A stretch of 47,695 nucleotides of DNA from Kiritimatiellia bacterium (GTDB lineage: Bacteria; Verrucomicrobiota; Kiritimatiellia; RFP12; UBA3636): contig JAFTHC010000072.1 in NCBI GenBank assembly GCA_017457625.1, forward strand, positions 1 to 47,695, written 5' to 3'. How positions within the stretch are numbered: position 1 is the stretch's first letter; every line of letters begins with the position of its first letter. The notes beneath the pieces were generated by a model that saw only the letters and a list, made by a program, of their open reading frames with translations, was not told the DNA's origin and did not search any database. The position numbers and the translations under genes are program-made. Shown here one piece after another: positions 3,128 through 16,333 of the stretch.

Positions 3128-3687
3128 ATCACGCCGTCCGGGCGGCCCTTTCGGTCGCGTTTCTGTTTTGTTTCGCCGCGAGTTGCCTTGCACCCGCTCC
3201 GCCCAAACCTAGCTTTCGAAATCTCTCCGCCCTTGAGGAGCGCCTCAGGACGAATCTCAACGGAGCCGCCGCGTTCCAGTCGTTTCTGGCCGAGCGGAAG
3301 GCATTGCTCGGGCGGAATCCGGTCATCCAGGTCGGCAACATCCGGAACAAAACGACAGATCACGAAATGCCCCTTCGCATTGCCGGTCTGCGCATGCACT
3401 TGCGTGGCGGTTTGGTTTCCGCCGGGTCCATGACGGTCGTGGACGACCACGGCGCCCGGGATTCCCAGGCCGGGGAAATCGTCGAAAGCATTGAAGCCAA
3501 TGCAGGACTCGGTCTTCGGGACAACGCCAACGTTCAGGCTTTTGGAACCCATTTGTCGCCCGATCTGACGTTGCGGGGGACCCTTTCATCCTATGACGGA
3601 GGCGACGTATGCGAATTACTTCTTGAAATCGTGGACCTTTCCACAGGAAGCATCGTCTGGCAAGACTGGTCACAACTCGGACTCTAA
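3124..3687 (+). CDS. LpoB-like lipoprotein (COG3417, penicillin-binding-protein activator family)
   Basis: Lipobox FCFAASC. The segments PVIQVGNIRNKTTDH and LLLEIVDLSTGSIVWQD align with E. coli LpoB (LLVDSVNNRTNG ... LQMQLMLVQTGEIIWSG). 4-nt ATGA overlap with the PEGA gene. Confidence 0.7.
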   Translation: MNHAVRAALSVAFLFCFAASCLAPAPPKPSFRNLSALEERLRTNLNGAAAFQSFLAERKALLGRNPVIQVGNIRNKTTDHEMPLRIAGLRMHLRGGLVSAGSMTVVDDHGARDSQAGEIVESIEANAGLGLRDNANVQAFGTHLSPDLTLRGTLSSYDGGDVCELLLEIVDLSTGSIVWQDWSQLGL

Positions 3688-3740
3688 TCCCTTTCGCCGA
3701 GGCATTTCGGCGGAAAACAACAAACAAAACAAACAAAAAC

Positions 3741-4220
3741 ATGAAAAAGACAAACCTCTCCGCACTCGCCGCCGCGGCCGTTGCGCTCGCGCTCGGCTCG
3801 GGCTGCGCTTCCCAGGGCATCACGTCGGGAGCCGACTACGCCCGATTCCCGAACACCGAAACCGAACGGTACATCCTGAAATACGACGTCAAGCCGACTC
3901 AAGTCTCGACATCGGCACAGGTAACCCGCGCGCTCGGCCTCACGTTCGGCGCGCCCTCCACCGTGATTCTCAACGACCGCGACGCCAAGTCCGGCATTTT
4001 GTTCACGATTTTCGGCAAGGGCATGACGGACGCGAAGAACGCCGCGCTCAACAAGGCTTTGCTCGAGAACAAGTGCGAGGCGATCCTCGGAGCCCGTTAC
4101 CAGATCGACAAGAAGGACTATGTCCTGTTCAGCACCTATGATTGCAAGATCACCGGTTGGCCGGCCACGGCGAAAAGCCTTGACAAGGTGGAAAAACCGG
4201 AATCCAAAGCCAACAAATAA
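3741..4220 (+). CDS. lipoprotein, unknown function
   Basis: Lipobox ALALGSGC. Balanced amino-acid composition. Preceded by an A/C-rich leader aaaacaacaaacaaaacaaacaaaaac (3714-3740). Confidence 0.75.
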   Translation: MKKTNLSALAAAAVALALGSGCASQGITSGADYARFPNTETERYILKYDVKPTQVSTSAQVTRALGLTFGAPSTVILNDRDAKSGILFTIFGKGMTDAKNAALNKALLENKCEAILGARYQIDKKDYVLFSTYDCKITGWPATAKSLDKVEKPESKANK

Positions 4221-4272
4221 CCCCGACCGGAGATCCGGAGCCGGAACGCCCGGCTCCGGATTTCCGCTTTAC

Positions 4273-5436
4273 ATGAAACCTACAGCATTGCATCCTCTTT
4301 TTCCGCGTTTGCGGAACGTTTGCATCGCGTTTTTGCCGGCGGTCCTGGCTGGTTGCGTTTCGCCGGATCCGCGCGGCATCTGGCTGCAGGGCCGGGAATT
4401 GGAAGGGGCTGGCATGCGGAGCCGCGCCGCGGAATTCTACCAAACGGCGGCGAACACGGATTTTCCGATAGCCCAATACGATCTGGCACGGCTGTTCTGG
4501 GCGTCTGGCGGCATTGAGGAACAAAAACACGCACTCCTGCTTTGGCTTGACATATCCCAGGTCGACCCGACAAACTTCCTGTTCGGACGCAACGATTCCG
4601 GGGCCGACCCCGCCGCCATCGCGTCTCTCCTGGAATTGGAAAAGGCCTTTAAAAACGGCACTTGCGTGGCCAAGGACGGGAAAGTCGCTGAATTTCTCTT
4701 TTCGAAAGCGGCCGAAATAGCCAAAAGGCCTTCAGTGGAAGCTTGGCTCCGCAAATACGGCGGCCTTTCCGAATCGGCGGCTCTCGAGAGGGCTATCTCC
4801 CATGCGCGCCTCCCGGGAAAGTCCGGCGTGGTTCGCGCGAAAACGGAGTTTGACTATTTCTACATCCGCAGTTTGATCGATCGGGATTCCACCCCCAAAA
4901 ACGGCATCCCGGCGGGCGGAGACGGATACGAACTCATCTCGCAGGGACAGACCGCAGACGGTCTGACGTGGACGTTCGAAGCAGAGCCGCAGGAAGGTTC
5001 GGACAAATTGAACGCACAAAGTCGTTTCGTTGCCGATGCCGGCCGCATCATGAAGGAAACGTATTTGAACTCTCACCCGGGAACCGATCCGGAAACCGTC
5101 TTTATCGCCGACAAATACCGACGCTTCCGCGGCGGCATGTTCACGTACCAAGCGGATATCGTAGTAATCGGGCGGGCGGAAGTATCTCTGCCGGGTTTTT
5201 CCGTTTCGTCCCAGACGGGCCACGGCGTCCTTCGCGTCCCGTGCGACGCGGCCAGGATCGGAAACGCCTTCGCATTTGCGCAAGGCAATATCGAAACCAT
5301 CGTCAATTCCCAAAACGTGCTCTTGACCACCGGAAGAAAACCGTCTTCCGGCGCCCATTACCGCGTGGACGACGTGAAAACGATTCCGGGCGCGGACGGC
5401 ACCACGTTGCTCGAAATCAATTTCACCGTCGAATAA
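4273..5436 (+). CDS. lipoprotein with Sel1/TPR-like N-terminal repeat, unknown function
   Basis: Internal start MKPTALHPLF... with lipobox PAVLAGC inside ORF 4120..5436. Sel1-like segment: AAEFYQTAANTDFPIAQYDLARLFWASGGIEEQKHALLLW. Ends 15 nt before cpaB. Confidence 0.7.
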   Translation: MKPTALHPLFPRLRNVCIAFLPAVLAGCVSPDPRGIWLQGRELEGAGMRSRAAEFYQTAANTDFPIAQYDLARLFWASGGIEEQKHALLLWLDISQVDPTNFLFGRNDSGADPAAIASLLELEKAFKNGTCVAKDGKVAEFLFSKAAEIAKRPSVEAWLRKYGGLSESAALERAISHARLPGKSGVVRAKTEFDYFYIRSLIDRDSTPKNGIPAGGDGYELISQGQTADGLTWTFEAEPQEGSDKLNAQSRFVADAGRIMKETYLNSHPGTDPETVFIADKYRRFRGGMFTYQADIVVIGRAEVSLPGFSVSSQTGHGVLRVPCDAARIGNAFAFAQGNIETIVNSQNVLLTTGRKPSSGAHYRVDDVKTIPGADGTTLLEINFTVE

Positions 5437-5451
5437 GGAGTCCAGACGCCC

Positions 5452-6168
5452 ATGAAAAACGCAATTCCCCTCGTCGTGGCCGTGTTGTTCGGCCTGGCCG
5501 CCGTGTTCGCGGTGAGCAACCGGCTTTCGAAAACGGAGCGGGCCGCCGCGTCCGGGACGGAGACGACGGCCGTCCTCGTCGCGCGGACCGACGTGCGCGC
5601 GGGCGAAGTCCTTTCGGACAAGAACCTCCGGACGCGCCGGATTCCCAGGGCTGCGTTCCGGGAAGGGCAGCACATGCGCGCGGAGGACCTCAATCTCGTG
5701 TCGGGGCAGCGCGTCCGCGCCGCCCTGTCGGACGGGGATTACCTTTTTGCCGGCGATCTGGCGCGCGCGGAAGGGACGGACGCCGGCGCCGCCGAACCGG
5801 GCAAATGGATCGTGCCGGTCCATTTCTCGGACTCGACGCTCCTGCGCGCCGGGCTGCTCGCCGCCGGCGACGAATTCGCCCTCGTGGCGCGCGGCGCGAT
5901 CCACCGGACGGTCCGCGGGACGGACGAGTCGGAGCCGGCCCGCGACGTTTCCGAGGACGGCATGTACGTGCTGTTCCCCTGCCTGCGCGTCCACCGGACC
6001 GCACCGGACGGAGCCTTCGTCTGCCTGCCGCCGGAGGAGGCCATGAGGCTCCAGCTCGCGCAGCTTTCGCTCGAACTCTACCCGATGCTCCGGATGCGCA
6101 ACGACCCGCGCAACGCGGACGCGGCGGCCCTTCCGCAGATCCGCGGCTCGCAACTCCGCGCGCGGTGA
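5452..6168 (+). CDS. cpaB: Flp pilus assembly protein CpaB/RcpC
   Basis: N-terminal TM IPLVVAVLFGLAAVFAV followed by a SAF-like segment VLVARTDVRAGEVLSDKNL. AAGGAG sits upstream. Position is immediately before the secretin. Confidence 0.85.
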   Translation: MKNAIPLVVAVLFGLAAVFAVSNRLSKTERAAASGTETTAVLVARTDVRAGEVLSDKNLRTRRIPRAAFREGQHMRAEDLNLVSGQRVRAALSDGDYLFAGDLARAEGTDAGAAEPGKWIVPVHFSDSTLLRAGLLAAGDEFALVARGAIHRTVRGTDESEPARDVSEDGMYVLFPCLRVHRTAPDGAFVCLPPEEAMRLQLAQLSLELYPMLRMRNDPRNADAAALPQIRGSQLRAR

Positions 6169-6223
6169 CGCGAGGTCCGTCTCCTTGTTTTCCCTTTTTC
6201 CCGATTCCACCTCCCAACGACCC

Positions 6224-7831
6224 ATGAAACGACTCCTGTCCCCCGCACCCGTCCTTGCCGCGCTGATCCTGGCCGCCGGGTCCGCCGGCGCCGACGCGGA
6301 CGCACTCACCGTCGAACTGCGGCCGAACGAAGCCGGAACGCTCGAACTGGATTTCGTCCCGGCGTCCTTCCTGCCCGTGTCCGGGAAGGGGCTCGTGAAA
6401 GCGGACGTCTTTCCCGGGCTTGCGACCGTTTCCCTTGTCGCGGGGGCCCGCCCCGGCTCGGCGCAGTTCCGTTTCATGGACGCGTCCGGGACGTCCGTCG
6501 CCCTCGTGACGGCGGTCGTCGTCTCCGAACTGGATTCCGTCCACGCCTCGCTCGTCCGCGAACTCGACGAATCGTTTCCGGGCCTGCGGGCCGAGAAGGG
6601 GTCGCGTGTCGTCGTCGTGAAGGGGACGGTGACGAGCGAGGCGAAATGGAACGCCCTCCGCGACCTTCTGGCCTCGGGCGAATACGCCGGGCTCGTGGAG
6701 TCGCGCGTCCGGTTCGGCGCGGACGCCGGAACGGTGTCCCGCCTCCGGGCGGCGCTCGCGAAAGCGGGACTTTCCGTGGCGGAGCCGGACGCCGAACCGG
6801 GTCCCGGCCAGATCGCCGTGGCCTACGCCAAGGAAGAAAACGAACTGTCGGTTTCCGGCCAAGTCTGGACGAAGGCGGAGCTGGACGCAATCGGCGACGT
6901 CCTCGGCCGCCAGAGCTGGCTCGCCGCCCCGGGCGACGCTTCGCCCGACGCGGAGAAGAAGGTCCGCACGGTCCTCTCCGTTTCGCTCGACCGCTCGCCG
7001 CTGGAGATGAGCGTCGCCGTCCTGAGCGTGGACAAGACGAAGAGCCGCGAGATCGGCAGCGACATGGCGCCGACCGTGGCGGCGGCCTTCAAGGGCTTCT
7101 ACAATTTCCTGACCGGCGAACACGCCAGCGAAGTCTTCCGGCTCGACATCGATTTCGCGACCACGGTCCGCGCGATCGCCGGCGCCGGGGCTTCCCGCAA
7201 CAGCATGAAGGCGGTTTTCACGTTCCTCGCCAACGACGAGACGCCGCAGACGGCCCACTTCGGCTCGTCGCTCACGGTGACGCCCGTTTCGTCGGGCGAC
7301 GGATCCGCCGGCGACAAGGAAAAATACGAACTGGGGCTCGTCCTCGTTTCGAACGGGACGAAACCGATTTCGGCCGACGAGGCGGAGATCCACCTGGATT
7401 TCACCTACAACGGACCGGTCGAATCGAAATACGTCGGCATGCCGGGCGGCGGCGCCGTCGAGACCGGGCATTCGGTCCACAAGCTCCCTTCGCTCGTGCG
7501 CAACTGCCGCTACGGGCGGACCATCGCCGTGGCCGGCTACGAAAAGATCGTCAAGAACGACACGGAGCCCGAAGGCCTGCCGCTGCTGCGGCACATCCCC
7601 GTCATCAACTGGTTCGTGGCCAAGGAATCGCATTTCGACGAAAAACTCACGATGGTCATACTCGTGAGCATCCGGAAAATCGGCGACGACGAAGCGCCGC
7701 GCGAAGGCATCGGCCCCATCGACGACATTTCGGGCGACATGGACAAACCCTACCAAAAAATCCTCGATCCGGAGAAGGGAACGGCCGGCCGGCCGGACGA
7801 GCGCTCGCTCGTCGACTGGTTCCGGTGGTAG
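6224..7831 (+). CDS. cpaC: secretin (CpaC/RcpA family)
   Basis: Signal peptide MKRLLSPAPVLAALILAAGSAGA. C-terminal secretin signature: LPLLRHIPVINWFVAKESHFDEKLTMVILVSIRKI. Confidence 0.85.
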   Translation: MKRLLSPAPVLAALILAAGSAGADADALTVELRPNEAGTLELDFVPASFLPVSGKGLVKADVFPGLATVSLVAGARPGSAQFRFMDASGTSVALVTAVVVSELDSVHASLVRELDESFPGLRAEKGSRVVVVKGTVTSEAKWNALRDLLASGEYAGLVESRVRFGADAGTVSRLRAALAKAGLSVAEPDAEPGPGQIAVAYAKEENELSVSGQVWTKAELDAIGDVLGRQSWLAAPGDASPDAEKKVRTVLSVSLDRSPLEMSVAVLSVDKTKSREIGSDMAPTVAAAFKGFYNFLTGEHASEVFRLDIDFATTVRAIAGAGASRNSMKAVFTFLANDETPQTAHFGSSLTVTPVSSGDGSAGDKEKYELGLVLVSNGTKPISADEAEIHLDFTYNGPVESKYVGMPGGGAVETGHSVHKLPSLVRNCRYGRTIAVAGYEKIVKNDTEPEGLPLLRHIPVINWFVAKESHFDEKLTMVILVSIRKIGDDEAPREGIGPIDDISGDMDKPYQKILDPEKGTAGRPDERSLVDWFRW

Positions 7832-7848: not shown

Positions 7849-9540
7849 ATGCAACTGGTCTGCCCGTCCCTGTCCCTGCGCCGTCCCCTGCCGGACGGCG
7901 GTTCTCCGCTCGTGCTCGGCCGCGCCGAGGACGCCGGGTTGCGCCTGGCCGATCCTGCGGTGTCGCGGCACCACGCGCGGCTCTCGGTTTCGGGCGGCCG
8001 GTGCATCGTGGAAGACCTCGGGAGCCGCGGCGGGACGTTTCTGGGAGGCGTGCGGCTTTCGGGCCCCGCGCCGGCCGGTCCCGGCGACGAGCTTCGGCTC
8101 GGCGGAACGGTTTTCCGATTCGAGGCCGATCCGGGCGCTCCGGCGGCCGCTCCGGCCGTGGCGGGGTCCGCGGCCGGCGGAGACGACGGCCCGCCCGATC
8201 CGCGGGAAGAGGCGCTGAAAGCCCGTTTCGCGGACGCGGCGCTGCTGTGCACGCCGGCGAACATGGCCCTGCAGAAGCGCTTCCGCGACCGGATCGTGGA
8301 GCGCATGGAGCGCTCCGCCCGGAAGGGCGACAAGGTCCTGGCCCGGTGGGAGGACCCGACCTACGGGCCGCGCCTGGAGGCGGCGCTGGACGAAATCCTG
8401 CGGGAATGCCGCCACGAAATCCCGGCGGACGTCCCGGCGGACGCCTTCCGGGCGGCCCTGCGCGACGAAATCGCCGAATACGGCCCGATCAGCCCGCTCC
8501 TGCGCGCGGACGACGTTTCCGAAATCATGGTCAACGGCCCCGGCCGCGTTTTCGCGGAAATCGGCGGTCTCCTGTTCGAGACCGGGGTCCGGTTCTTCGA
8601 CGACTCGCACCTGCTCAACCACATCAAGAACATCGCCGCCTCGGTGGGGCGGCGCGTGGACGACGCGAGCCCGATGGTCGACGCCCGCCTTCCCGACGGA
8701 TCGCGCGTCAACGCCGTCATTCCGCCGCTCGCGCTCGACGGCCCGTCCCTCACGATCCGGAAATTCCCTTCGAAGAAACTCACGGTCGACGATCTCGTCG
8801 CGTTCGGGAGCCTGTCTCCGGGCATGGCGGCGTTTCTGCGGGAGGCGGTTCTCGCGCGCAAGAACGTCGTCGTCTCCGGCGGAACCGGCTCGGGCAAGAC
8901 GACGCTGCTGAACGTGCTCTCGCAGTTCATTCCGCGCGGCGAGCGCGTCGTCACGATCGAAGACTCGGCCGAGCTCAAGCTCTCGCACCGCAACGTCGTC
9001 CGGCTCGAAGCGCGGCCGCCCAACGTCGAAGGAACGGGCCGCGTGACGATCCGCGACCTCGTCGTGAATGCGCTCCGCATGCGGCCGGACCGCATCGTCG
9101 TGGGCGAATGCCGCGGCGCTGAGGCGCTCGACATGCTGCAGGCGATGAACACGGGCCACGACGGTTCTCTCACGACGCTGCACGCCAACACGCCCCGCGA
9201 CGCGCTCTCCCGCCTGGAGAACATGGTGATGATGGCGGGCTTCGACCTCCCGTCGCAGGCCATCCGGGAGCAGATTTCCTCGGCCGTGGACGTCATCGTG
9301 CAGCAGAACCGCCTGCCGGACGGATCGCGCAAGATCGTTTCGATCGAGGAAGTCGGGGCTCCCGAAGGATCGACGATCACGCTCTCCCCCGTGTTCGTCT
9401 TCGAACCAGCCGGCCTGTCGCCGGAGGGCAAGGTCCTCGGCCGGCACGTGCCGACCGGGAACATCCCGCAATTCGTCCACGACCGCAACGCGGCCGGCAC
9501 GCTCCGCATGGACATGTCGGCGTTCGTCGAAACCGCCTGA
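7849..9540 (+). CDS. cpaF: FHA-domain fused to CpaF/TadA secretion ATPase
   Basis: FHA at the N-terminus: LVLGRAEDAGLRLADPAVSRHHARLSV...VEDLGSRGGTFLGG. ATPase motifs are Walker A GGTGSGKT (8878-8901), VVTIEDSAEL and GHDGSLTTLHAN. The first ~400 codons of track ORF 6646..9540 overlap the secretin and were rejected. Confidence 0.9.
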   Translation: MQLVCPSLSLRRPLPDGGSPLVLGRAEDAGLRLADPAVSRHHARLSVSGGRCIVEDLGSRGGTFLGGVRLSGPAPAGPGDELRLGGTVFRFEADPGAPAAAPAVAGSAAGGDDGPPDPREEALKARFADAALLCTPANMALQKRFRDRIVERMERSARKGDKVLARWEDPTYGPRLEAALDEILRECRHEIPADVPADAFRAALRDEIAEYGPISPLLRADDVSEIMVNGPGRVFAEIGGLLFETGVRFFDDSHLLNHIKNIAASVGRRVDDASPMVDARLPDGSRVNAVIPPLALDGPSLTIRKFPSKKLTVDDLVAFGSLSPGMAAFLREAVLARKNVVVSGGTGSGKTTLLNVLSQFIPRGERVVTIEDSAELKLSHRNVVRLEARPPNVEGTGRVTIRDLVVNALRMRPDRIVVGECRGAEALDMLQAMNTGHDGSLTTLHANTPRDALSRLENMVMMAGFDLPSQAIREQISSAVDVIVQQNRLPDGSRKIVSIEEVGAPEGSTITLSPVFVFEPAGLSPEGKVLGRHVPTGNIPQFVHDRNAAGTLRMDMSAFVETA

Positions 9541-9553: not shown

Positions 9554-10408
9554 ATGGATTTCTCCGCCGCCGACGCCGGTCTTCTGCTGCTGGTCTTCGC
9601 CGCCGCGTGCGCGCTGGCCGGCGCCGCGTTCGCCGCGGCGCGGGACCGCGCCGCCGAAAAGGCGCTGGCGGCCCGCGGCGGCGCCGGGGCGGTCCGCGCG
9701 GCGACCCGGGCCGCGGCGGGCGCGTTTTTCGCCGCGGCGCTGGCGACGGCGGGCGCGTCCCTGGCGGGCGCGTCCCTGGCCGGTTCCGCGGTCGCCGCGC
9801 TGGCGGCCGGCGCCGCGGCCGCGGCGGCGCCGGGCCTCTCCGCGCGCCGGCGCGCGGCCCGCGTGGAGTCGGATTTCGAGGCGCAGATCCTCGACCTGGC
9901 CACGGCCCTCTCGAACGGGCTGCGGGCGGGGCTGGCGCCCAACGCGGCGCTTGCGGCGGCGGCGGACCGCCTGCCGGATCCCATGTCCGGCGAACTGGAG
10001 GCCGTCCTGCGCGAGACGCGCCAGGCGGGCGTCCCCCTCCCCGAGGCCCTGGCGCGGCTCTACGGCCGCCACCCCTCCGAAGACCTCGCCCTGCTTGTCG
10101 GTTCCGTGTCGCTCACGCAGCAGACGGGCGGCAGTCTCGCGACGGTCCTCGCGCGGCTCGTCGAAACGATCCGGGAGCGGACCGAGTTCAAGCGGCGGCT
10201 CCGCGCGATGACGGAGCAGAGCCGGTTCGAGGCGGCCGCCATGGCCCTGGCGCCCGTGTTCGTTTTCTTGCTGCTCTTTTTCATCGACCGGCCGCTCATG
10301 TTGCCGCTCGTGACGACCGAGCAGGGCTGGTTCGCGCTGGCGGCCGACGCGGCGATGTCGGCCGTGGGGTTCGCCATCATTTCGAAAATCGGGAAAATCG
10401 AGGTGTAG
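9554..10408 (+). CDS. tadB: TadB-type platform protein (T2SS F family)
   Basis: T2SSF-like core LALLVGSVSLTQQTGGSLATVLARLVETIRERTEFKRRLRAMTEQSRFEA plus terminal TM segments. Very Ala-rich N-terminus. Confidence 0.85.
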   Translation: MDFSAADAGLLLLVFAAACALAGAAFAAARDRAAEKALAARGGAGAVRAATRAAAGAFFAAALATAGASLAGASLAGSAVAALAAGAAAAAAPGLSARRRAARVESDFEAQILDLATALSNGLRAGLAPNAALAAAADRLPDPMSGELEAVLRETRQAGVPLPEALARLYGRHPSEDLALLVGSVSLTQQTGGSLATVLARLVETIRERTEFKRRLRAMTEQSRFEAAAMALAPVFVFLLLFFIDRPLMLPLVTTEQGWFALAADAAMSAVGFAIISKIGKIEV

Positions 10409-10409
10409 G

Positions 10410-11309
10410 ATGGACGAAACGCGGACCACGCTCTCCTGCCTTCTCGTTTTCGCGGCCGTCGTCGGCTCCTATCTGGCCGCCGACGCGCTCGTGAAACTGC
10501 CGCGGCGGTCGTCTTCGCCCCTCTCCGGGGATCCGACCCTTCCGCCGCCGTATCGCCTCCTCCTTCCCCTGGTTCTCTGGGCGGGGCCGGGCATCGGCGC
10601 CCGCCTCGCGGAGGCGGCGCCGCGCCGCGCCGCCGCGCTGCGCTCGACGCTGGCCCTCGCGGGCGTCCGCCTCGGCCCGGAGCACGTGTTCGGCCTGCAG
10701 ACGGTTCTCGCCGCGGCCGGAGCCCTCGCGGGCGTGCTGCTTTTCGTCCTGACCGGCGACGCGGGGACCGGCGCGTTTTTCGCGGTCTTGGCCGCGCTCG
10801 CGGGCTGGATCCAGCCCGGGCTCGACCTGGAAGCGCGCGCGCGGCGGCGGCAGGAGGCGGTCGTGCGCGCCTTGCCGTTCGCCATCGATCTGATCGCCGC
10901 CGCGATGCGGGCCGGCGTCGACTTCGTCTCGGCCGTCCGCCACTACGTGCAGCTCGGCCTGGACAACCCGCTGGCGGCCGAATTCCGCACGCTGCTGCGC
11001 GAGATGACGGAGGCGAACGTCCCCCAGGCCGAGGCGCTGGACCGCATGGCGGCCCGCATCCGGTCGCCCGAGTTCCGCTCGTTCGTCGACGCCGTCGCGC
11101 ACGGGCTCGAGGTCGGCGCCTCGGTCGCGGACACCATGGCGGCGCAGGGCGAGGACCTGCGCCGCGCCCGGTTCGCCCTCGCGGAACGCAAGGCGGCCCG
11201 CGCGCCGAGTCTCATGATCTTCCCGCTGGCGCTGTTCATCCTGCCGGCGGTTTTCATCGTGGTTTTCTTCCCCGTCTGGTTGCGCTGGAAGGCGTCGCAC
11301 GGCGGATAA
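10410..11309 (+). CDS. tadC: TadC-type platform protein (T2SS F family)
   Basis: LPFAIDLIAAAMRAGVDFVSAV ... VDAVAHGLEVGASVADTMAAQGEDLRRARFALAERKAARAPSLMIFPLALFILPAVF. Starts 1 nt after the tadB stop. Confidence 0.85.
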   Translation: MDETRTTLSCLLVFAAVVGSYLAADALVKLPRRSSSPLSGDPTLPPPYRLLLPLVLWAGPGIGARLAEAAPRRAAALRSTLALAGVRLGPEHVFGLQTVLAAAGALAGVLLFVLTGDAGTGAFFAVLAALAGWIQPGLDLEARARRRQEAVVRALPFAIDLIAAAMRAGVDFVSAVRHYVQLGLDNPLAAEFRTLLREMTEANVPQAEALDRMAARIRSPEFRSFVDAVAHGLEVGASVADTMAAQGEDLRRARFALAERKAARAPSLMIFPLALFILPAVFIVVFFPVWLRWKASHGG

Positions 11310-11328: not shown

Positions 11329-12813
11329 ATGTCCGCCTCAATCCGTTTCGTGTCTGGATCGCTCGCCGGGTCGTCGTTCGGCGTCGGGGACGCCGTCGGC
11401 ATCGGCCGGTCGCGCTCGTGCGCGGTGCGGCCGGCCGAGCCGGACGTGTCCGGCCATCACGCCGTCGTCTCCCCCGGGGAAAGCGGACTTCTGCTCGAGG
11501 TTTCCGGCCGGGCCGGCGCCGTCGTAGACGGCCGCGCGGTTTCCCCGGGCGCTTCCGTCGCCCTGGCGCCCGGCGCCCGCGTCCGCCTCGGCTCCTCGCT
11601 GGAGTTCGAAGTCGCGGGCGACGCTCCCGCTGCGGACGAGACCGCGGCGGGCGAGACCGCGGCGGACGAGACCGCGGCGGACGAGACCACGGCGCCGGAC
11701 GTGGATGACGGTGCGGACGAAACGCGCGCGCTGGAAACACAGGCGGCGACGCCTGCCGAGCTGGAGCGTCTCCGGGGCATGCACCAGGCGCGCCGCCGCC
11801 GATCCGTCCTGTTCCGGGTCGCCCTCGTCGCCGCGGCCTTTCTGGCGGCCCTCGGCGTTTCGCTTTGGCGCCAGCGCGCCCCGGAAACCGAACGGCTCCT
11901 GCATCCGCGCGGCGAAAAAGGGGACACCCTGCGGACGAAGGTCGAAATCGACGCGCCCGGACCGGACGTCGCGGAGCCGCCCTTCCTGTTCGTCTACGGC
12001 GCCAATGCGCCCGTATCCCGCTCGACCGACGGCGCCGGCCGCCGCTGGACGACGGTCGGCGGCCGGCTCCGGACGAGCCGCGGCCGGGACGTCGACTTTC
12101 CCGTCCGCGCCTGCGCGTTCGACGATCCGGAGGGTCTCCGCGCGCCGCGGGAAGAGCGCTTCCGCGCGTGGCTCGAAGCGGTCGCCCCCGAACGGAACTG
12201 GACGCTGCTGGGGGAAGAGCCGCCGGCCCGGCTGCGCTTCCTCGGCGGCGAGCGGGGGCTCGGCCCCGGCATTCCCTACCGCCAGTGGCGCTACAAGACC
12301 GGCGAAGGCGGCGTGCAGCGAGACGGCCGCGTCGCCTTCTTCCGGGCCGGCCGGCGCTGCTACGCGGTCTGCTGGGAGCTCGAAAGCTCCGTGTTCGCCC
12401 TGTCCCGGCGCGCCGGCGCGCCCGGCCGGGCGCTCGAAGAGCTGGTCGTCAGCCCGTCTTCGTTCGCGGAAGGCCGGTGGGAAGGCGCGCCGGAGTCGGG
12501 CCTTTCCCCGGACCCGGCCGCGACCGCGCGCTCGCCGTTGGAATGGGAGGAGACGGAAACGCGCCTGCGGGAAGCGCTCGTGGCGGCGGCGCTCGCGGGC
12601 GAACCGACGGCCGGCACGCAGGCGGCCGCTGGGCTCTCCGCCCTGCGCCGGGCCAAGGACGCGGCGTGGAAGGACTTCTGGGCGCGCCGCGTCGAAGCGG
12701 CGCACGATCCGCGCGCGGCCGCGGCCGTCGACGCGGAGGCCGTCGCCGCGTTCCGCGGCTCCGACGACCGCCGGCGCGACCTGCTCCGCGACAAGAACTG
12801 GTGGAAGAAATGA
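11329..12813 (+). CDS. FHA-domain single-pass membrane protein with large C-terminal (predicted periplasmic) domain
   Basis: FHA: VGIGRSRSCAVRPAEPDVSGHHAVVSP. An acidic DETAA repeat is followed by TM VLFRVALVAAAFLAALGVSLW and then ~310 aa with no recognisable family. Confidence 0.8.
   Translation: MSASIRFVSGSLAGSSFGVGDAVGIGRSRSCAVRPAEPDVSGHHAVVSPGESGLLLEVSGRAGAVVDGRAVSPGASVALAPGARVRLGSSLEFEVAGDAPAADETAAGETAADETAADETTAPDVDDGADETRALETQAATPAELERLRGMHQARRRRSVLFRVALVAAAFLAALGVSLWRQRAPETERLLHPRGEKGDTLRTKVEIDAPGPDVAEPPFLFVYGANAPVSRSTDGAGRRWTTVGGRLRTSRGRDVDFPVRACAFDDPEGLRAPREERFRAWLEAVAPERNWTLLGEEPPARLRFLGGERGLGPGIPYRQWRYKTGEGGVQRDGRVAFFRAGRRCYAVCWELESSVFALSRRAGAPGRALEELVVSPSSFAEGRWEGAPESGLSPDPAATARSPLEWEETETRLREALVAAALAGEPTAGTQAAAGLSALRRAKDAAWKDFWARRVEAAHDPRAAAAVDAEAVAAFRGSDDRRRDLLRDKNWWKK
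11635..11694 (+). repeat. in-frame 15-nt tandem repeat x4 (DETAA/GETAA/DETAA/DETTA)
   Basis: The sequence reads gacgagaccgcggcg, ggcgagaccgcggcg, gacgagaccgcggcg, gacgagaccacggcg. It lies between the FHA domain and the TM helix. Confidence 0.9.
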
Positions 12814-15218
12814 GAAAACCGGCTCCCGCGCTCGAACTTTCCAAGGACGGCCGCGTGCTGTTCCGCGCCGACGCCGCCGGTTTTCCCGGGACCCTGACGA
12901 TCGGCCGGAGCCGCGAATGCGACTGGTGCCTGGCCGGCGCCGATCCGTCCGCCAGCGGCCGCCACGCGGAGGTGACCCGGCGGCGGGGTTCGTTTTACGT
13001 CCGCGATCTCGGCAGCCGCAACGGCGTTCTCGCGGACGGCGTCCGCGTCGCCTCGTGCCGGCTCCGGCCCGGCCGCCCCGTCCGGATCGGCGGCTGCGAG
13101 CTGGCCGTCGTGGCGGGCGCCGCCGCCGCCGATTCGCCGGCGTTCCACCGGATCGAGCAGACCGGCGGCCCGGAAGCGGGGCGCGCGTTCGACCTGAAGC
13201 CCGGCCCGGGTCTCGCCGTCGGCTCCGATCCGGCCTGCGACGTGGTCTGCCCCGGGCCGTTCGTCTCCCGGCGGCATCTGCTGTTCCGGCTCGACGAACG
13301 AGGCGATCCGGTCGTCGAATGCACCGGCGCGCGCAACGGCGCGACCGTGAACGGCCTGCCGCTCCTCAAGACCCAGCAGCTCGCGGACGGCGATTCGATC
13401 GTGGCGGCCGACCGGGAGTTCCGCTTCCTGGACAAAAACGTCCCCCACGTCCGCGCCGGTCTGGGGCGCAAGGCCCTCGTGGCCGGCGCGACCCTCCTGC
13501 TCGCCCTCGCCGCGCGCCAGATCTGGCTCGCGGCCCGCCCCGACGCCGGCCGCCTCCTCGACCGGGCGCGCGCCGCCGCCGCCGCCGAATCGTTTTCCGA
13601 GGCGTTCGCGCTCGCGGACGAAGCGGCCGCCGCGCGTCGCGCGCCGGTCTACGAATCCGCGCGCCGCGCCCTTCTGGCCGACCTCTCGCGCTGGACCAAC
13701 GCGATCGTCCGGTGGCGGGGTCCCGGCGACTGCGCCCGGTCGATGCTCCGGGCCCGCCGGTGGAAGGCCGCCCCCGACTACCGCTCCGGCGCGTCCGACT
13801 GGGGGTGGAACACGACGACCTCCCCCGCCATGCAGGCCGAGGAGCGCCGGGCGTTCGACCTGCTCGACGCGTTCAACGGCCCCGGCGCCGGCCGGAACCT
13901 GCTTCGCGACGAGGCCGTCGCGGGCGCCGCGGCCGATCCCGTCCTGCGGGACCGGGCCGCGGCCGCGTTCGAGGCCGCGGCCGACCGGCTCGCGGCGGCG
14001 ACGGCCGCCGTGTGGCGGGCCGCCGCGCCGCCGCCGCCGCCGGACTGGTATCTGCGGCCGCTCGTCGAATCGGCCGCCGCCGTCGAAGACGCTCTCCGCG
14101 CCGCCGCCGCCGCCAACGCCGCGCTCGACGCCCGGTTCGGCGCGCTCCGGCTCCCCGACTGCCTCGCGGCGCCGCCCGACGGCGCAGCCCGGCTCGCGCG
14201 GGATCTGGCCGCGCTCGCCTCGCAGGACGCGCAAGCGCGCGAACGCGCCGAAGAGGACCGCCGGACCGGCCGGTATCCGGTCCTGCGCCGCAGCCGCCTG
14301 CTCGCCGACCGGATCGAGGCGGCCGGGCCGGTCGTCGGCCGCCTCGTCGCGGCCGAGGCCGTTTTCGCGTCCAATCTCGCCGCGGTCGCGCGTTGCGACG
14401 GCGCGGCGTTCGCGCCGGCGCTTCCGCTGCCGGACGAGGACGACGCGCGCGCCGTCCATCCGGCGCTGGCCGGCTACGCCGCTTCGCTCGCCTCGCTGCA
14501 AGCCGACCTCGACGGCTTCCGCGTCGAATGGGATTCCGCCGCCGGCCAGCTCGCGCGCTGGGACCTGGATCCGGCCCGGCCGGCGATCCCCGGCGACATG
14601 GCGTTCCTGTTTTCGCTGGAAAAACTCCCCGCCGCGCCGCCGCGCGGCGCGCCGCTTCCGCCGGCGGGCGCCGCCGCGCCCGCCGATCCCTACGACTTCG
14701 CGGTCGGGGCCCGGGACTTCCGGGATTTCCTGGACCCCTCGATCAAGACCCGGTTCGAAACGGCGGCGACCGCCTACGTGCGCGGGTCCAAGCTGGAATC
14801 GTCCTGGAGCGGACCCGTGCCGCCGGAGCTCGCGCGGCTCGGCGTGTCGTTCGCCATGCCGCTCGTGCGGCGGACGGCCAACCGGCTCCGCGTCCTGCGC
14901 GCCGCCGCCGCCGCGCTCGACGGGACGCCCGCCCGCGATCCCCGCGGCCTGCACGCGCTCGTCCGGACCGTCCCCGACGCGCCGGGCCGCCCGAATCTGG
15001 CCGCCGGGGCGCTGCGCCTGCACGGGCTCGTGTCCGCGGCCGCGGACAAGTGGCGGCAGGGGCCGCTCTCGGCCGCCGCCGCGCCCGCCGGGCGCGACGC
15101 CGCGCTCGCCGAGGCCGTCCGCGCCCTGCTGTTTCCGCCCGCCAAGGCCGCGGAGCGCGCCGCCGCCGCGGCCCGCATCGCCGAAAAACTCGCGGCCGAC
15201 CGGGAGGAGGCGCCGTGA
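12810..15218 (+). CDS. double-FHA single-pass membrane protein with ~570 aa Ala-rich C-terminal domain
   Basis: FHA1: TIGRSRECDWCLAGADPSASGRHAEVTRRRGSFYVRDLGSRNGVLADG. FHA2: LAVGSDPACDVVCPGPFVSRRHLLFRL...GARNGATVNG. TM: ALVAGATLLLALAARQIWLAA. ATGA overlap with the previous gene. Confidence 0.8.
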   Translation: MRKPAPALELSKDGRVLFRADAAGFPGTLTIGRSRECDWCLAGADPSASGRHAEVTRRRGSFYVRDLGSRNGVLADGVRVASCRLRPGRPVRIGGCELAVVAGAAAADSPAFHRIEQTGGPEAGRAFDLKPGPGLAVGSDPACDVVCPGPFVSRRHLLFRLDERGDPVVECTGARNGATVNGLPLLKTQQLADGDSIVAADREFRFLDKNVPHVRAGLGRKALVAGATLLLALAARQIWLAARPDAGRLLDRARAAAAAESFSEAFALADEAAAARRAPVYESARRALLADLSRWTNAIVRWRGPGDCARSMLRARRWKAAPDYRSGASDWGWNTTTSPAMQAEERRAFDLLDAFNGPGAGRNLLRDEAVAGAAADPVLRDRAAAAFEAAADRLAAATAAVWRAAAPPPPPDWYLRPLVESAAAVEDALRAAAAANAALDARFGALRLPDCLAAPPDGAARLARDLAALASQDAQARERAEEDRRTGRYPVLRRSRLLADRIEAAGPVVGRLVAAEAVFASNLAAVARCDGAAFAPALPLPDEDDARAVHPALAGYAASLASLQADLDGFRVEWDSAAGQLARWDLDPARPAIPGDMAFLFSLEKLPAAPPRGAPLPPAGAAAPADPYDFAVGARDFRDFLDPSIKTRFETAATAYVRGSKLESSWSGPVPPELARLGVSFAMPLVRRTANRLRVLRAAAAALDGTPARDPRGLHALVRTVPDAPGRPNLAAGALRLHGLVSAAADKWRQGPLSAAAAPAGRDAALAEAVRALLFPPAKAAERAAAAARIAEKLAADREEAP

Positions 15219-15449: not shown

Positions 15450-15782
15450 ATGAAATTCAGGAAAACGCGCCTCGTCCGCACGCTCTGCCGCCTCTTCGGC
15501 GAAGAGAAAGGCCAGGCCATGATGGAATACGTCGTGCTCGCGGTCCTCATCGTCGCCGCCGCCGTCTTCGCCGTCGTCAAGTTCGGCGGAGCGATCGTCC
15601 GCCAGTTCGGCGTGGCCGAAAAAGGCGCCGTCGGAAACGAAGCGGGCGCCGTCGAACTCCAACAACAGAGCCAGGATACGGCCAATACGGACGTCACGCA
15701 AGGGCAAAACGCCAACGCAGCCTACAGCACGCTCTCGGAAGGCGGCGGCGAAGGCGGCGAAGGCGAAGGCTCTTCCGACTGA
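15450..15782 (+). CDS. flp: Flp-family pilin with extended acidic/Gly C-terminal tail
   Basis: GEEKG-QAMMEYVVLAVLIVAAAVFAVV matches G/xxxxEY plus a hydrophobic helix. The 110 aa length is long for Flp. Tail: SEGGGEGGEGEGSSD. Confidence 0.8.
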   Translation: MKFRKTRLVRTLCRLFGEEKGQAMMEYVVLAVLIVAAAVFAVVKFGGAIVRQFGVAEKGAVGNEAGAVELQQQSQDTANTDVTQGQNANAAYSTLSEGGGEGGEGEGSSD

Positions 15783-15796: not shown

Positions 15797-16333
15797 GTGT
15801 CCCCGCTTCCCCTCGCCTTTTTCGCCGCGTGGCTCCTCGCGCTCTGCGTCTGCGATCTGCGCGCCCGCCGGCTGCCCAACGCGCTCACGCTGGGCGGCGC
15901 GGCGGTCGCGCTCGCCGCGCGGCTGGGCGCGGGGTGGCCGTCGGCCGCGCCGTTTCTGGACGGTCTGGCCGGCGGCGCGCTCGCGGCGCTGCTGCTGCTG
16001 CTGCCGTTTCTCGTCCGGGCGGCGGGCGCGGGGGACGTGAAGATGCTCTTCGCGGCCGGGTGCGCGCTCGGCCGCGGCCGGGCGGCGGGCTTTCTGCTGT
16101 TCGTTTCGCTCGCGGGGCTCGCGCTCGGACTCGTCTGGTTCCTGTCCGCCCGGTTCGACCGGCGGCGGATCCGGCATCTGGCGCGGACGCTCTTCGATCC
16201 GCGCTACGACCGCGCGGCCGGACGCGCGGCGCTGCCGCCGAAATCGGCGGAGGCGTGCCGCGTCCCGTTCGGCCTGGCCATCGCCGCCGGCGCGGCGCTC
16301 GAGCTGGCGCTGGAACCGGGAGGCGCCGCGTGA
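15797..16333 (+). CDS. cpaA: A24-family prepilin peptidase, CpaA/TadV type (no methyltransferase domain)
   Basis: Polytopic membrane protein with the two Asp motifs LCVCDLRARRLPN and AAGAGDVKMLFAAG. GTG start. Confidence 0.85.
   Translation: MSPLPLAFFAAWLLALCVCDLRARRLPNALTLGGAAVALAARLGAGWPSAAPFLDGLAGGALAALLLLLPFLVRAAGAGDVKMLFAAGCALGRGRAAGFLLFVSLAGLALGLVWFLSARFDRRRIRHLARTLFDPRYDRAAGRAALPPKSAEACRVPFGLAIAAGAALELALEPGGAA

What the first reader, a model, noticed from the sequence alone, without database searches (positions are those of the whole stretch)
7849..9540. The Tad motor ATPase itself carries an N-terminal FHA domain
Seen: residues 1-95 (about 7849-8130) have the FHA hallmarks GR...SRHHA...DLGSRGGT. 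They are followed, after a ~110 aa linker, by a complete CpaF module with Walker A GGTGSGKT at 8878-8901.

Established: FHA domains bind phosphothreonine. Canonical CpaF/TadA proteins have no FHA domain and are positioned by TadZ/CpaE.

Inference: motor recruitment or activity is directly gated by a pThr mark written by the kinase at 28179 and erased by the PP2C at 27295. This would replace the missing TadZ-type localisation factor.
Basis: partly seen in the sequence, partly recalled or inferred. Interest (0 to 1): 0.7.

Follow-up and report, generated by a model that had tools for sequence, protein, structure and literature searches.

The report
FHA-fused Tad pilus motor ATPase
The pilus motor gene at 7849-9540 really does carry a phosphothreonine-reader (FHA) domain at its front end, but this fusion is an already described and widespread class of Tad/CpaF ATPase, so this is a new example from Kiritimatiellia-type bacteria and not a new kind of motor.

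Summary
ORF 7849-9540 (+) encodes 563 aa with a Pfam FHA domain (res 22-85, E=4.5e-15) and a CpaF/TadA ATPase (T2SSE E=1.4e-64; E=7e-122 to solved Caulobacter CpaF), with Walker A at 8878-8901.

The FHA region is translated. dN/dS is 0.12 against a 93%-identical orthologue, and more than 100 full-length homologues keep G24, R25, S39, R40 and H42.

One correction applies. The "~110 aa linker" is a disordered stretch of about 20-25 aa (res ~94-117) followed by CpaF's helical three-helix-bundle region.

The fusion is not new. M. xanthus KilF was described in 2021 as an FHA-fused Tad-like ATPase, and a 2025 CpaF paper defines "class III" as FHA-IDR-3HB-NTD-CAD. Here 55 of the 150 nearest 50%-cluster representatives carry the FHA domain.

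The new context is a conserved PVC cassette (Kiritimatiellia/Lentisphaeria): CpaB, secretin, FHA-CpaF, TadB, TadC, an FHA membrane protein and a 2xFHA membrane protein. No TadZ was found. A PP2C and a tandem-kinase receptor STPK lie in the same gene run, together with a second FHA-less CpaF paralogue.

Gating by pThr is plausible but untested. The clade has lost the canonical FHA Asn.

Verdict: new member of a known kind, with modest interest.

The parts
7849..9540 (+). FHA-CpaF gene (563 aa): the class III CpaF/TadA motor ATPase.
   Evidence: Pfam FHA and T2SSE. PDB CpaF E=7e-122. More than 100 full-length homologues.
7849..8127 (+). FHA domain (res 1-93). It carries GR (7918-7923), SRHHA (7963-7977) and DLGSRGGT (8014-8037). 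Gly61 replaces the canonical Asn.
   Evidence: Pfam E=4.5e-15. PDB FHA hits. AF2 beta-sandwich with pLDDT about 90. dN/dS 0.12. Asn kept in only 1/99 of the clade.
8128..8199 (+). Short disordered tether (res ~94-117). Its length and sequence vary between homologues.
   Evidence: AF2 pLDDT below 50 for res 97-115. Gappy alignment columns. dN/dS 0.50.
8200..8505 (+). Helical N-terminal region of CpaF (three-helix bundle and following helices, res 118-219).
   Evidence: AF2 helices 118-219. Conserved FxDAALLC..MALK..H..I motif. Foldseek aligns about 423 columns to CpaF chains that include this region.
8515..9537 (+). CpaF NTD and C-terminal ATPase domain (res 223-563), with Walker A GGTGSGKT at 8878-8901.
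5452..6168 (+). CpaB/RcpC-like protein (SAF domain).
   Evidence: Pfam SAF 2.4e-8. Found upstream in 70/71 related loci.
6185..7831 (+). Divergent secretin-like protein.
   Evidence: Only a sub-threshold Pfam Secretin hit (19.1 bits). Orthologues in L001, L003 and L004 carry Secretin. Found upstream in 67/71 loci.
9554..10408 (+). TadB-like platform protein (T2SSF).
   Evidence: Pfam 2.1e-14. Found in 58/58 loci.
10410..11309 (+). TadC-like platform protein (T2SSF).
   Evidence: Pfam 4.8e-14. Found in 58/58 loci.
11329..12813 (+). Single-pass membrane protein. It has a cytoplasmic N-terminal FHA domain, a Thr-rich acidic juxtamembrane segment (11635-11751), a transmembrane helix at res 159-177 and a periplasmic domain.
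   Evidence: Pfam FHA 2.7e-7. Sequence and hydropathy.
11722..11739 (+). Conserved twin-Thr motif T132-R-A-L-E-T137 (T-x-x-hydrophobic-x-T). It is a candidate phospho-acceptor and FHA docking site.
   Evidence: 32 of 34 orthologues keep T..[LMIVF].T within 60 aa before the transmembrane helix, with consensus ETxAMQTRxA(S/T)PEE(I/L). Its function is inferred only.
12810..15218 (+). Membrane protein with two cytoplasmic FHA domains, one transmembrane helix and a large periplasmic part.
   Evidence: Pfam FHA x2, 2.1e-29. Start and hydropathy. Found in 57/58 loci.
15450..15782 (+). Flp-type pilin with a G/QAMMEY processing motif and a hydrophobic helix.
   Evidence: Weak Pfam Flp_Fap hit.
15797..16333 (+). 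Prepilin peptidase (A24, TadV/CpaA type).
   Evidence: Pfam 2.7e-15.
25156..26220 (+). Second CpaF paralogue (354 aa). It has the NTD and ATPase only, with no FHA, IDR or 3HB. Walker A is GATSSGKT at 25585.
   Evidence: 50% identity to the FHA-CpaF core. PDB CpaF E=3e-87.
27295..28182 (+). PP2C-type Ser/Thr phosphatase.
   Evidence: Pfam PP2C_2 1.6e-10 and SpoIIE. It overlaps the kinase start by 4 nt.
28179..30857 (+). Receptor-type Ser/Thr kinase. It has two tandem kinase domains (HLDLKPSN at 28608, HRDLKPAN at 29475). The juxtamembrane [12 protein letters not shown] repeat lies at 29943-29978 and the transmembrane helix at 30027-30086. A Pro-rich spacer and a C-terminal periplasmic domain follow.
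   Evidence: Pfam Pkinase 1.1e-54 with 2 stretches. Sequence.

Best explanation
Shown: 7849-9540 encodes the CpaF/TadA-type hexameric motor ATPase of a Flp/Tad (type IVc) pilus machine in a Kiritimatiellia-like PVC bacterium. Its architecture is the already described 'class III' form: FHA, a short disordered tether, the three-helix bundle, the NTD and the ATPase domain. It belongs to a conserved cassette of CpaB, secretin, FHA-CpaF, TadB, TadC, an FHA membrane protein and a 2xFHA membrane protein. That cassette has no TadZ/CpaE.

Inferred mechanism: the FHA domain hangs on a tether of about 20-25 residues in front of the hexamer. It acts as a phosphothreonine-dependent docking module. A transmembrane tandem-kinase STPK, encoded in the same gene run, phosphorylates Thr sites on membrane components. 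The PP2C encoded next to the kinase reverses this.

The best candidate sites are the conserved T-x-x-hydrophobic-x-T motif in the juxtamembrane segment of the FHA membrane protein at 11329-12813, and the kinase's own TAETRF repeats.

Under this model the pThr marks recruit or retain FHA-CpaF at the TadB/TadC platform, possibly through the FHA membrane proteins as a scaffold. Pilus assembly would then be switched by an envelope signal instead of being positioned by TadZ. This works like the T6SS threonine-phosphorylation pathway (PpkA, PppA, Fha1), and matches what has been proposed but not tested for the Myxococcus Kil system.
For: Identity:
- Pfam FHA and T2SSE.
- E=7e-122 to CpaF structures.
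- Foldseek TM 0.85 to CpaF.
- The AF2 domain layout.

A real Tad system:
- Two T2SSF genes, an A24 peptidase, TadE/TadG-like genes and an Flp pilin with a G/QAMMEY motif.

The FHA domain is functional and selected:
- dN/dS is 0.12.
- G24, R25, S39, R40 and H42 are invariant in 64 homologues.

The cassette is conserved:
- TadB 58/58, TadC 58/58 and the 2xFHA protein 57/58.
- Gene order is the same in L001-L004.

Linkage to phospho-signalling:
- The PP2C and kinase lie in the same-strand run, with gaps of -4 to 19 nt.
- Kinase, PP2C or ATPase2 homologues lie within +-10 kb of FHA-CpaF in 24 of 86 loci, in at least four different arrangements (also L001 and L003).

Candidate ligand:
- The twin-Thr T..[LMIVF].T motif is conserved in 32 of 34 orthologues of the FHA membrane protein, inside otherwise unconserved sequence.
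- Thr repeats also occur in the kinase juxtamembrane region of the window and of orthologues.

No TadZ was found.

Literature: the KilF FHA fusion and a proposed signalling cascade (PMC8460266), and class III CpaF (PMC12019362).
Against: - No phosphorylation, binding or localisation data exist for this or any other FHA-CpaF.
- The canonical FHA Asn that contacts the peptide backbone (GSxNGT) is Gly61 here. It is kept in only 1 of 99 close homologues, against 16 of 31 scorable distant FHA-CpaF proteins. Peptide recognition may therefore be altered or weakened.
- The domain also matches the phospho-independent Yop-YscD_cpl family (38 bits, cutoff 33.2).
- PVC genomes encode many Hanks kinases, so a kinase within 20 kb is only moderately more than chance. 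Genome-wide kinase counts could not be obtained.
- Most loci (62 of 86) showed no kinase within the +-10 kb that could be fetched.
- Four FHA domains are encoded in the locus, so the conserved Thr motif may be read by one of the others.
- A second CpaF paralogue without FHA lies next to the kinase. It is not clear which ATPase drives which step.
Confidence: 0.6

Rival explanations
1. The FHA domain is a phospho-independent structural adaptor, like the FHA-like cytoplasmic domains of T3SS YscD/PrgH/EscD. It binds unphosphorylated partners such as the FHA membrane proteins, TadB/TadC or other FHA domains. This would simply anchor the hexamer under the platform. The nearby kinase and PP2C would regulate something else, or only the other FHA proteins.
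For: - The canonical peptide-binding Asn has been lost across the clade, being kept in 1 of 99 close homologues.
- The domain gives an above-threshold match to Pfam Yop-YscD_cpl (2e-9, 38 bits against a cutoff of 33.2).
- The two FHA membrane proteins have the YscD-like layout of cytoplasmic FHA, one transmembrane helix and a periplasmic domain.
- Most related loci show no kinase within +-10 kb.
Against: - The phosphate-contacting Arg25 and Ser39, the following Arg40, and His42 are invariant in 64 homologues. Phospho-independent YscD-type domains typically lack these residues; this last point is from general knowledge and was not tested here.
- The kinase and PP2C are translationally coupled into the same gene run.
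- They recur near the cassette in several gene orders.
Confidence: 0.22
2. The FHA domain regulates the motor in cis or within the hexamer. It would bind a pThr on CpaF itself, or on a neighbouring subunit or paralogue. That would lock or release the ATPase ring, as GarA/OdhI self-bind their phosphorylated N-terminus. It would set activity or direction (extension against retraction) and would not recruit the motor to the membrane.
For: - The tether is short, about 20-25 aa, which keeps the FHA domain close to the 3HB and NTD.
- The closest solved FHA sequences include GarA and OdhI, which self-bind.
- A paralogous FHA-less CpaF in the same operon suggests division of labour between two motors.
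Against: - There is no conserved Thr at a fixed column in the linker or at the start of the 3HB across homologues. The Thr shifts between two positions in alignment A1.
- The linker itself is poorly conserved, with dN/dS 0.50.
- The best conserved Thr motif lies in a different protein.
Confidence: 0.1
3. Annotation artefact: the true start lies downstream, for example at M139, and the FHA-like stretch is untranslated or a relic.
For: - The codon-usage score is low over 7891-8108 (0.026, against about 0.13 downstream) in the sliding-window coding scan.
- The putative RBS (AGGAAA) lies rather far from the ATG.
Against: - dN/dS is 0.12 over res 1-95.
- The FHA motifs are invariant in 64 homologues spanning 56-93% identity.
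- Independent gene calls in L001-L006 all include the FHA domain.
- 80 genome loci match from query residues 1-23 onward.
Confidence: 0.01

Closest known systems
Class III CpaF (FHA-IDR-3HB-NTD-CAD), defined in the 2025 Nat Commun CpaF cryo-EM paper (PMC12019362). The published example is Achromobacter xylosoxidans E3HIW0.
   Same: The domain order is the same: N-terminal FHA, disordered tether, helical bundle, NTD and ATPase. The ATPase core is about 48-49% identical to C. crescentus CpaF in the Foldseek structural alignments.
   Different: The paper says class III is found mostly in betaproteobacteria, whereas this protein comes from a large PVC clade. The tether is short. The clade lacks the canonical FHA Asn. 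Phylogenetic relatedness to the betaproteobacterial fusions was not tested.
KilF, the ATPase of the Myxococcus xanthus Kil Tad-like prey-killing apparatus (Seef et al. 2021, PMC8460266).
   Same: - Both are Tad-like ATPases fused to an N-terminal FHA domain.
- Both loci are rich in other FHA proteins.
- Both secretins are atypical.
- A signalling cascade upstream of assembly has been proposed for Kil.
   Different: - Kil is described as having a single ATPase, as being split into two clusters and as restricted to predatory deltaproteobacteria.
- Here there are two CpaF paralogues, one contiguous locus, TadG-like and TadE-like genes, and a PVC host with no known predatory lifestyle.
- The Kil paper's main text names no kinase, whereas here an STPK and a PP2C are in the operon.
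The T6SS threonine phosphorylation pathway (PpkA kinase, PppA PP2C phosphatase, Fha1 scaffold) of Pseudomonas aeruginosa.
   Same: Both have a transmembrane Hanks kinase, an adjacent PP2C and FHA proteins encoded inside a secretion or filament machine locus. The proposed logic is the same: an envelope signal leads to pThr, then FHA docking, then ATPase recruitment and assembly. This is a comparison of how it works only.
   Different: The machine is different (Tad pilus, not T6SS). Here the FHA domain is fused to the motor ATPase itself and is not a separate scaffold that recruits ClpV. The kinase has two tandem kinase domains.
Canonical Tad systems with TadZ/CpaE (A. actinomycetemcomitans, C. 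crescentus).
   Same: The core set is shared: Flp pilin, A24 peptidase, CpaB/RcpC, secretin, CpaF/TadA, TadB, TadC and TadE/TadG-like pseudopilins.
   Different: There is no TadZ/CpaE. The locus adds three FHA-bearing proteins, a second CpaF paralogue, a radical SAM enzyme, a PP2C and an STPK.

Membership tests
CpaF/TadA (Tad / type IVc pilus ATPase) | A PilT/VirB11-type ATPase core with Walker A, closest to CpaF among the secretion ATPases. | tested here: met
   - T2SSE E=1.4e-64.
- CpaF structures E=7e-122, against FlaI/GspE at about 1e-40 and PilT at about 1e-11.
- Foldseek best matches are CpaF, with TMt 0.85.
- Walker A lies at 8878-8901.
- NCBIfam TIGR03819 scores 333 bits, below its 373 cutoff. 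That model is the conjugal-transfer-associated TadA subtype.
CpaF/TadA (Tad / type IVc pilus ATPase) | Encoded with TadB and TadC, CpaB/RcpC, a secretin, an A24 prepilin peptidase and an Flp pilin. | tested here: met
   Synteny holds in 58/58 loci for TadB and TadC. The secretin and Flp Pfam hits in the window are sub-threshold, but orthologues carry Secretin and the pilin has the G/xxxxEY motif.
FHA domain (PF00498) | A profile match above the curated threshold. | tested here: met
   56.3 bits against 20.7, E=4.5e-15. PDB FHA domains are hit by sequence.
FHA domain (PF00498) | A beta-sandwich fold. | tested here: met
   The AF2 model has nine predicted beta-strands (3 residues or longer) between res 2 and 92, with pLDDT about 87-94. 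No domain-only fold search was run.
FHA domain (PF00498) | The conserved phosphate-binding Gly-Arg and Ser-x-x-His residues. | tested here: met
   G24, R25, S39 and H42 are invariant in 64 homologues.
FHA domain (PF00498) | The conserved Asn of the beta6-beta7 loop (GSxNGT), which contacts the ligand backbone. | tested here: not met
   The position is Gly61 here. It aligns to the Asn of GarA. Asn is present in 1 of 99 close homologues and 16 of 31 distant FHA-CpaF proteins.
FHA domain (PF00498) | Binds phosphothreonine peptides. | not testable with these tools
   This needs ITC, fluorescence polarisation or pull-downs with phosphopeptides.
Class III CpaF architecture (PMC12019362) | FHA, then IDR, then 3HB, NTD and CAD in one polypeptide. 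| tested here: met
   Pfam together with the AF2 segment pattern: beta 1-93, disordered 97-115, helices 118-219, then alpha/beta domains. The definition is read.
Kil-type Tad-like apparatus (M. xanthus) | An FHA-fused ATPase and an over-representation of FHA proteins in the locus. | tested here: met
   Four FHA domains occur in three proteins. The definition is read.
Kil-type Tad-like apparatus (M. xanthus) | A single ATPase, no TadG, and genes split into two clusters. | tested here: not met
   There are two CpaF paralogues, a TadG-like gene with a sub-threshold Pfam Tad hit (20.9 bits, cutoff 22.3), and one contiguous run.
Kil-type Tad-like apparatus (M. xanthus) | Phylogenetic placement within the Kil clade (Myxococcales, Bdellovibrionales, Bradymonadales) and a role in prey killing. 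| not tested
The hosts found are PVC MAGs.
TadZ/CpaE-dependent Tad system | A ParA/MinD-like TadZ/CpaE encoded in the locus. | tested here: not met
   - The only P-loop NTPases in plausible ORFs of the window are the two CpaF paralogues.
- None of the scanned ORFs gave a CbiA, AAA_31 or ParA Pfam hit.
- No deviant Walker A was found in the 86 loci.
- A copy elsewhere in the genome cannot be excluded.

The most novel reading that the evidence does not exclude
The PVC Tad machine may be a phospho-switched, two-motor pilus that assembles on demand and needs no TadZ. A receptor-type tandem kinase would sense an envelope or contact signal. It would phosphorylate the conserved juxtamembrane T-x-x-hydrophobic-x-T motif of the FHA membrane protein. 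The FHA domain of CpaF is an Asn-less variant with its own specificity, and it would dock on that mark. The FHA-less CpaF paralogue next to the kinase would take the opposite step, retraction or a second substrate. This would extend the contact-triggered, Kil-like logic to abundant gut and anaerobic-digester PVC bacteria that are not known to be predators.
Probability: 0.2. Interest if true: 0.6.

Novelty: new member of a known kind. Interest (0 to 1): 0.3.

Why it matters
What the FHA domain on CpaF-type motors does is still experimentally open. KilF has been localised but its FHA domain was never dissected, and class III CpaF has only been catalogued.

This PVC family is a clean comparative system for that question:
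- The FHA-ATPase, two FHA membrane proteins, a PP2C and a receptor kinase lie in one operon-like run.
- There is a sharply conserved candidate phospho-motif to test.

If the model holds, it would show how a Tad pilus can be assembled on a signal without TadZ. As a discovery about the fusion itself, however, it adds only a new lineage to a known architecture.

Tried and rejected
- **Wrong start or untranslated N-terminus.** Rejected by dN/dS of 0.12, invariant FHA residues and independent gene calls.
- **'~110 aa linker'.** Rejected. AF2 and the alignment show about 20-25 disordered residues followed by a conserved helical region.
- **A hidden TadZ/CpaE.** I searched with Pfam scans of all plausible ORFs of the gene run, and with Walker-A and deviant-Walker-A regular expressions in six frames of the window and 86 loci. 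None was found. The regex approach could miss a very divergent TadZ.
- **Filing the locus as a Kil system.** Not adopted. Two ATPases, a TadG-like gene, a single cluster and a PVC host argue against it. No KilF sequence was available for a tree.
- **Taxonomy of distant FHA-CpaF representatives** through the listing of cluster members. This gave only two names, Planctomycetota and Candidatus Raymondbacteria.
- **A literature search for 'KilF'** alone returned only unrelated word matches. A search for Tad pili in Kiritimatiellae found nothing.
- **A conserved Thr in the CpaF linker or 3HB start** as a self-ligand. The Thr is not at a fixed column in alignment A1, so this was not pursued.
- **My first tblastn with the second ATPase** used a wrong frame. 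It was corrected.
- **The kinase co-occurrence test** is limited by the 10-kb flank cap. In the window the kinase lies 19 kb from CpaF, so syntenic loci (L002, L004) could not be checked.
Full report
**1. The observation**

- The ORF at 7849-9540 (+) translates to 563 aa. Its ATG lies 17 nt after the stop of the upstream secretin-like gene.
- Pfam gives FHA (res 22-85, E=4.5e-15, 56.3 bits against a 20.7 cutoff) and T2SSE (res 210-486, E=1.4e-64).
- The first 100 residues alone hit solved FHA domains: a GGDEF-protein FHA, GarA, Rv0020c, OdhI, Rv1747, EmbR and Ki-67.
- Residues 206-546 hit the Caulobacter CpaF structures at E=7e-122, far better than FlaI, GspE, VirB11 or PilT.
- An AlphaFold2 model built on 64 homologues (mean pLDDT 81) shows four parts:
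  - a confident all-beta domain at res 1-93;
  - a disordered stretch at res 97-115 only;
  - confident helices at res 118-219;
  - the two alpha/beta domains of the ATPase.
- Foldseek places the model on CpaF with TM 0.85 over about 423 columns.
The '~110 aa linker' is a tether of about 20-25 aa plus CpaF's own helical N-terminal (three-helix-bundle) region. That region is conserved in sequence (FxDAALLC..MALK..).

**2. Is the N-terminus really made?**

That test fails.
- Against the 93%-identical orthologue (L005), residues 1-95 show 35.5 synonymous and 14.5 non-synonymous changes, giving dN/dS 0.12. The tether gives 0.50, the helical region 0.16 and the ATPase 0.05.
- More than 100 database homologues at 57-93% identity cover 96-100% of the query, and all carry FHA plus T2SSE.
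- In 64 aligned sequences G24, R25, S39, R40, H42, D56, S59, G62 and T63 are invariant.
- Independent gene calls on six contigs include the FHA domain.

**3. Surroundings**

A codon-usage frame scan shows one same-strand run of genes from about 4120 to 30857. Wherever precise gene starts were assigned, intergenic gaps are -4 to 19 nt, apart from one 231-nt gap before the pilin. In order:

| Coordinates | Gene | Evidence |
|---|---|---|
| 5452-6168 | CpaB/RcpC-like (SAF) | |
| 6185-7831 | divergent secretin | |
| 7849-9540 | FHA-CpaF | |
| 9554-10408 | TadB | |
| 10410-11309 | TadC | |
| 11329-12813 | single-FHA membrane protein | |
| 12810-15218 | double-FHA membrane protein | |
| 15450-15782 | Flp pilin with G/QAMMEY motif | |
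| 15797-16333 | A24 prepilin peptidase | |
| ~16960-19574 | TadG-like | |
| 20629-22692 | Mbeg1-like hydrolase | |
| ~22710-23423 | TadE-like | |
| 23898-25139 | radical SAM enzyme | |
| 25156-26220 | second CpaF paralogue | |
| 27295-28182 | PP2C | |
| 28179-30857 | receptor-type kinase with two tandem kinase domains | |

- The second CpaF paralogue is 50% identical to the FHA-CpaF core and has no FHA, tether or helical bundle.
- No ParA/MinD-type TadZ/CpaE is present. The only P-loop NTPases in plausible ORFs are the two CpaF paralogues.
- A deviant-Walker-A scan of the window and 86 related loci found nothing credible.

**4. Relatives**

- A scan of one genome per GTDB species found 252 relatives. 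The best 80 are all PVC MAGs labelled Kiritimatiellia, Lentisphaeria, Victivallales or 'Verrucomicrobia'. Their matches begin at query residues 1-23, so the FHA domain is included.
- The cassette is conserved. Among 58 loci with at least 6.5 kb downstream:
  - TadB is present in 58;
  - TadC is present in 58;
  - the double-FHA protein is present in 57;
  - the more divergent single-FHA protein is detectable in 34.
- CpaB-like and secretin-like genes precede FHA-CpaF in 70 and 67 of 71 loci.
- Homologues of the kinase, PP2C or second ATPase lie inside the +-10 kb that could be fetched in 24 of 86 loci. They occur in several different arrangements:
  - tandem kinase plus PP2C upstream in L045, L052, L056, L068 and L081;
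  - the same pair downstream in L053;
  - the ATPase2 orthologue (66-71% identity) beside a kinase on the opposite strand in L055, L057, L067, L069, L079, L085 and L086;
  - see also L001 and L003.
- Linkage that survives rearrangement supports a functional tie. I could not obtain the background kinase density of these genomes, so the strength of this support is moderate.

**5. Known or new?**

The fusion is already in the literature.
- Seef et al. [quoted passage not shown] They also report an over-representation of FHA proteins and propose a T6SS-like signalling cascade (PMC8460266).
- The 2025 CpaF cryo-EM paper sorts 292 orthologues into three classes. Class III is FHA-IDR-3HB-NTD-CAD and is 'mostly found in betaproteobacteria' (PMC12019362).
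- A 2025 review still lists the FHA proteins of kil clusters as untested candidates (PMC12428579).
- In an exhaustive search of 1.84 billion 50%-cluster representatives, 55 of the 150 best hits carry an N-terminal FHA domain by a local HMM. Named examples include Planctomycetota and Candidatus Raymondbacteria.
- I found no paper on Tad pili in Kiritimatiellae.
- The finding is therefore a new lineage of a known architecture.

**6. Two details that qualify the mechanism**

(a) The FHA domain has lost one hallmark residue.
- It keeps the phosphate-binding Arg and Ser and the structural His. The canonical Asn of the GSxNGT loop is Gly61.
- In the close PVC family that position is G, A, S or F, and Asn appears in only 1 of 99 proteins. 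By contrast, 16 of 31 scorable distant FHA-CpaF proteins keep it.
- From general knowledge, this Asn contacts the ligand backbone and matters for binding in several FHA domains.
- pThr-peptide binding therefore cannot be assumed, and specificity may differ.

(b) There is a concrete candidate ligand.
- The single-FHA membrane protein has a Thr-rich acidic segment between its FHA domain and its transmembrane helix (DETAAGETAADETAADETT...DETRALETQAATPAEL, 11635-11775).
- In 32 of 34 orthologues the 60 residues before the helix contain a twin-Thr motif T-x-x-[LMIVF]-x-T. The consensus is ETxAMQTRxA(S/T)PEE(I/L), embedded in otherwise unconserved sequence.
- A hydrophobic residue at pT+3 is the classical shape of an FHA ligand (general knowledge).
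- The kinase's juxtamembrane region also carries Thr repeats. The window has [12 protein letters not shown] at 29943-29978. Orthologues have TERTLAADEKTLATM and TEQTMAVDEETMATM.
- Which of the four FHA domains reads these sites cannot be decided by sequence.

**7. Most likely mechanism**

- Shown: this is a class III CpaF motor in a bona fide Flp/Tad locus that lacks TadZ and is rich in FHA proteins. A PP2C and a receptor kinase sit in the same gene run.
- Inferred:
  - the kinase senses an envelope signal through its periplasmic part;
  - it phosphorylates juxtamembrane Thr sites on itself and/or on the FHA membrane proteins;
  - the tethered FHA domain of CpaF docks on these marks, bringing or holding the hexamer at the TadB/TadC platform;
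  - the PP2C resets the system.
- I put this at about 0.6, with identity near certain and the pThr gating step roughly even.
- Rivals:
  - a phospho-independent scaffold role like YscD-type domains (0.22; supported by the lost Asn and the Yop-YscD_cpl hit, opposed by the invariant Arg, Ser and His);
  - cis or intra-hexamer autoregulation (0.1);
  - an annotation artefact (about 0.01, refuted).
- The idea that the FHA domain 'replaces TadZ' is consistent with the absence of TadZ, but it is not otherwise testable here.

**8. Verdict**

- It is a new member of a known kind, with interest of about 0.3.
- The value lies in the comparative system and not in the fusion itself. That system offers an operonic kinase and PP2C, a conserved twin-Thr motif, an Asn-less FHA clade and a second bare CpaF paralogue.

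Noticed in passing
window 25156-26220 (+): A second CpaF paralogue of 354 aa has the NTD and ATPase only, with Walker A GATSSGKT. It is 50% identical to the FHA-CpaF core. It lies in the same gene run just upstream of the PP2C and kinase. Orthologues (66-71% identity) sit beside a kinase in at least seven other PVC loci. Canonical Tad systems use one bifunctional CpaF, so two paralogues suggest a division of labour.
   Followed up: partly
window 11635-11775 (motif T132..T137 at 11722-11739); loci L002-L084: The FHA membrane protein encoded after TadC has a Thr-rich acidic juxtamembrane segment. It ends in a twin-Thr motif T-x-x-[LMIVF]-x-T, with consensus ETxAMQTRxA(S/T)PEE(I/L), conserved in 32 of 34 orthologues. 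It is a candidate phospho-acceptor and FHA docking site.
   Followed up: partly
window 28179-30857 (+): The kinase has two tandem Hanks kinase domains (HLDLKPSN and HRDLKPAN). It also has a juxtamembrane [12 protein letters not shown] repeat (29943-29978), one transmembrane helix, and a long PEPxPAPEP proline-rich periplasmic spacer. A C-terminal domain of about 120 aa with no Pfam match follows. Orthologues of 1200-1285 aa replace the spacer with long coiled-coil-like, Lys/Glu-rich regions.
   Followed up: partly
window 8029-8031 (Gly61 of FHA-CpaF); homologues P0001-P0120: The canonical FHA Asn (GSxNGT) is replaced across the whole PVC clade by G, A, S or F, and Asn is kept in only 1 of 99 proteins. 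About half of the more distant FHA-CpaF proteins keep it.
   Followed up: yes
window 23428-25139 (+): A radical SAM enzyme (23898-25139) overlaps by 4 nt a preceding 157-aa secreted-looking ORF (23428-23901). Both lie inside the tad gene run, between the TadE-like gene and the second ATPase. They may carry out a pilin or peptide modification. No homologue was seen within +-10 kb of the other loci.
   Followed up: no
window 20629-22692 (+): A 687-aa signal-peptide protein with an Mbeg1-like (lipase/hydrolase-type) domain lies in the middle of the pilus locus. No homologue was found in the flanks of the 86 related loci. It may be a strain-specific cargo, effector or insertion.
   Followed up: no
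window 1766-5436 (+); L004 1593-7656; L005 445-6061: A conserved upstream block of lipoprotein-type genes precedes the CpaB-like gene in the window and in two related contigs. It contains a weak PEGA hit, LpoB-like, DUF1425 in the relatives, and unknown ORFs of about 385-490 aa. It may belong to the same machine.
   Followed up: no
window 1-6000 and 40000-47695 versus 6000-40000: G+C is 0.59-0.64 at both ends of the window and 0.68-0.76 in the middle. The high-GC part includes both the tad locus and ordinary housekeeping-type genes (glycosyltransferases, beta-lactamase-fold, fumarase C-terminal). The shift therefore does not simply mark the pilus locus as an island.
   Followed up: no
window 6185-7831 (+): The secretin-like gene gives only a sub-threshold Pfam Secretin match (19.1 bits, res 442-494) and no N0/N1-type domain hit. 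Orthologues in some relatives score as Secretin. This recalls the atypical short secretin noted for the Kil system.
   Followed up: no
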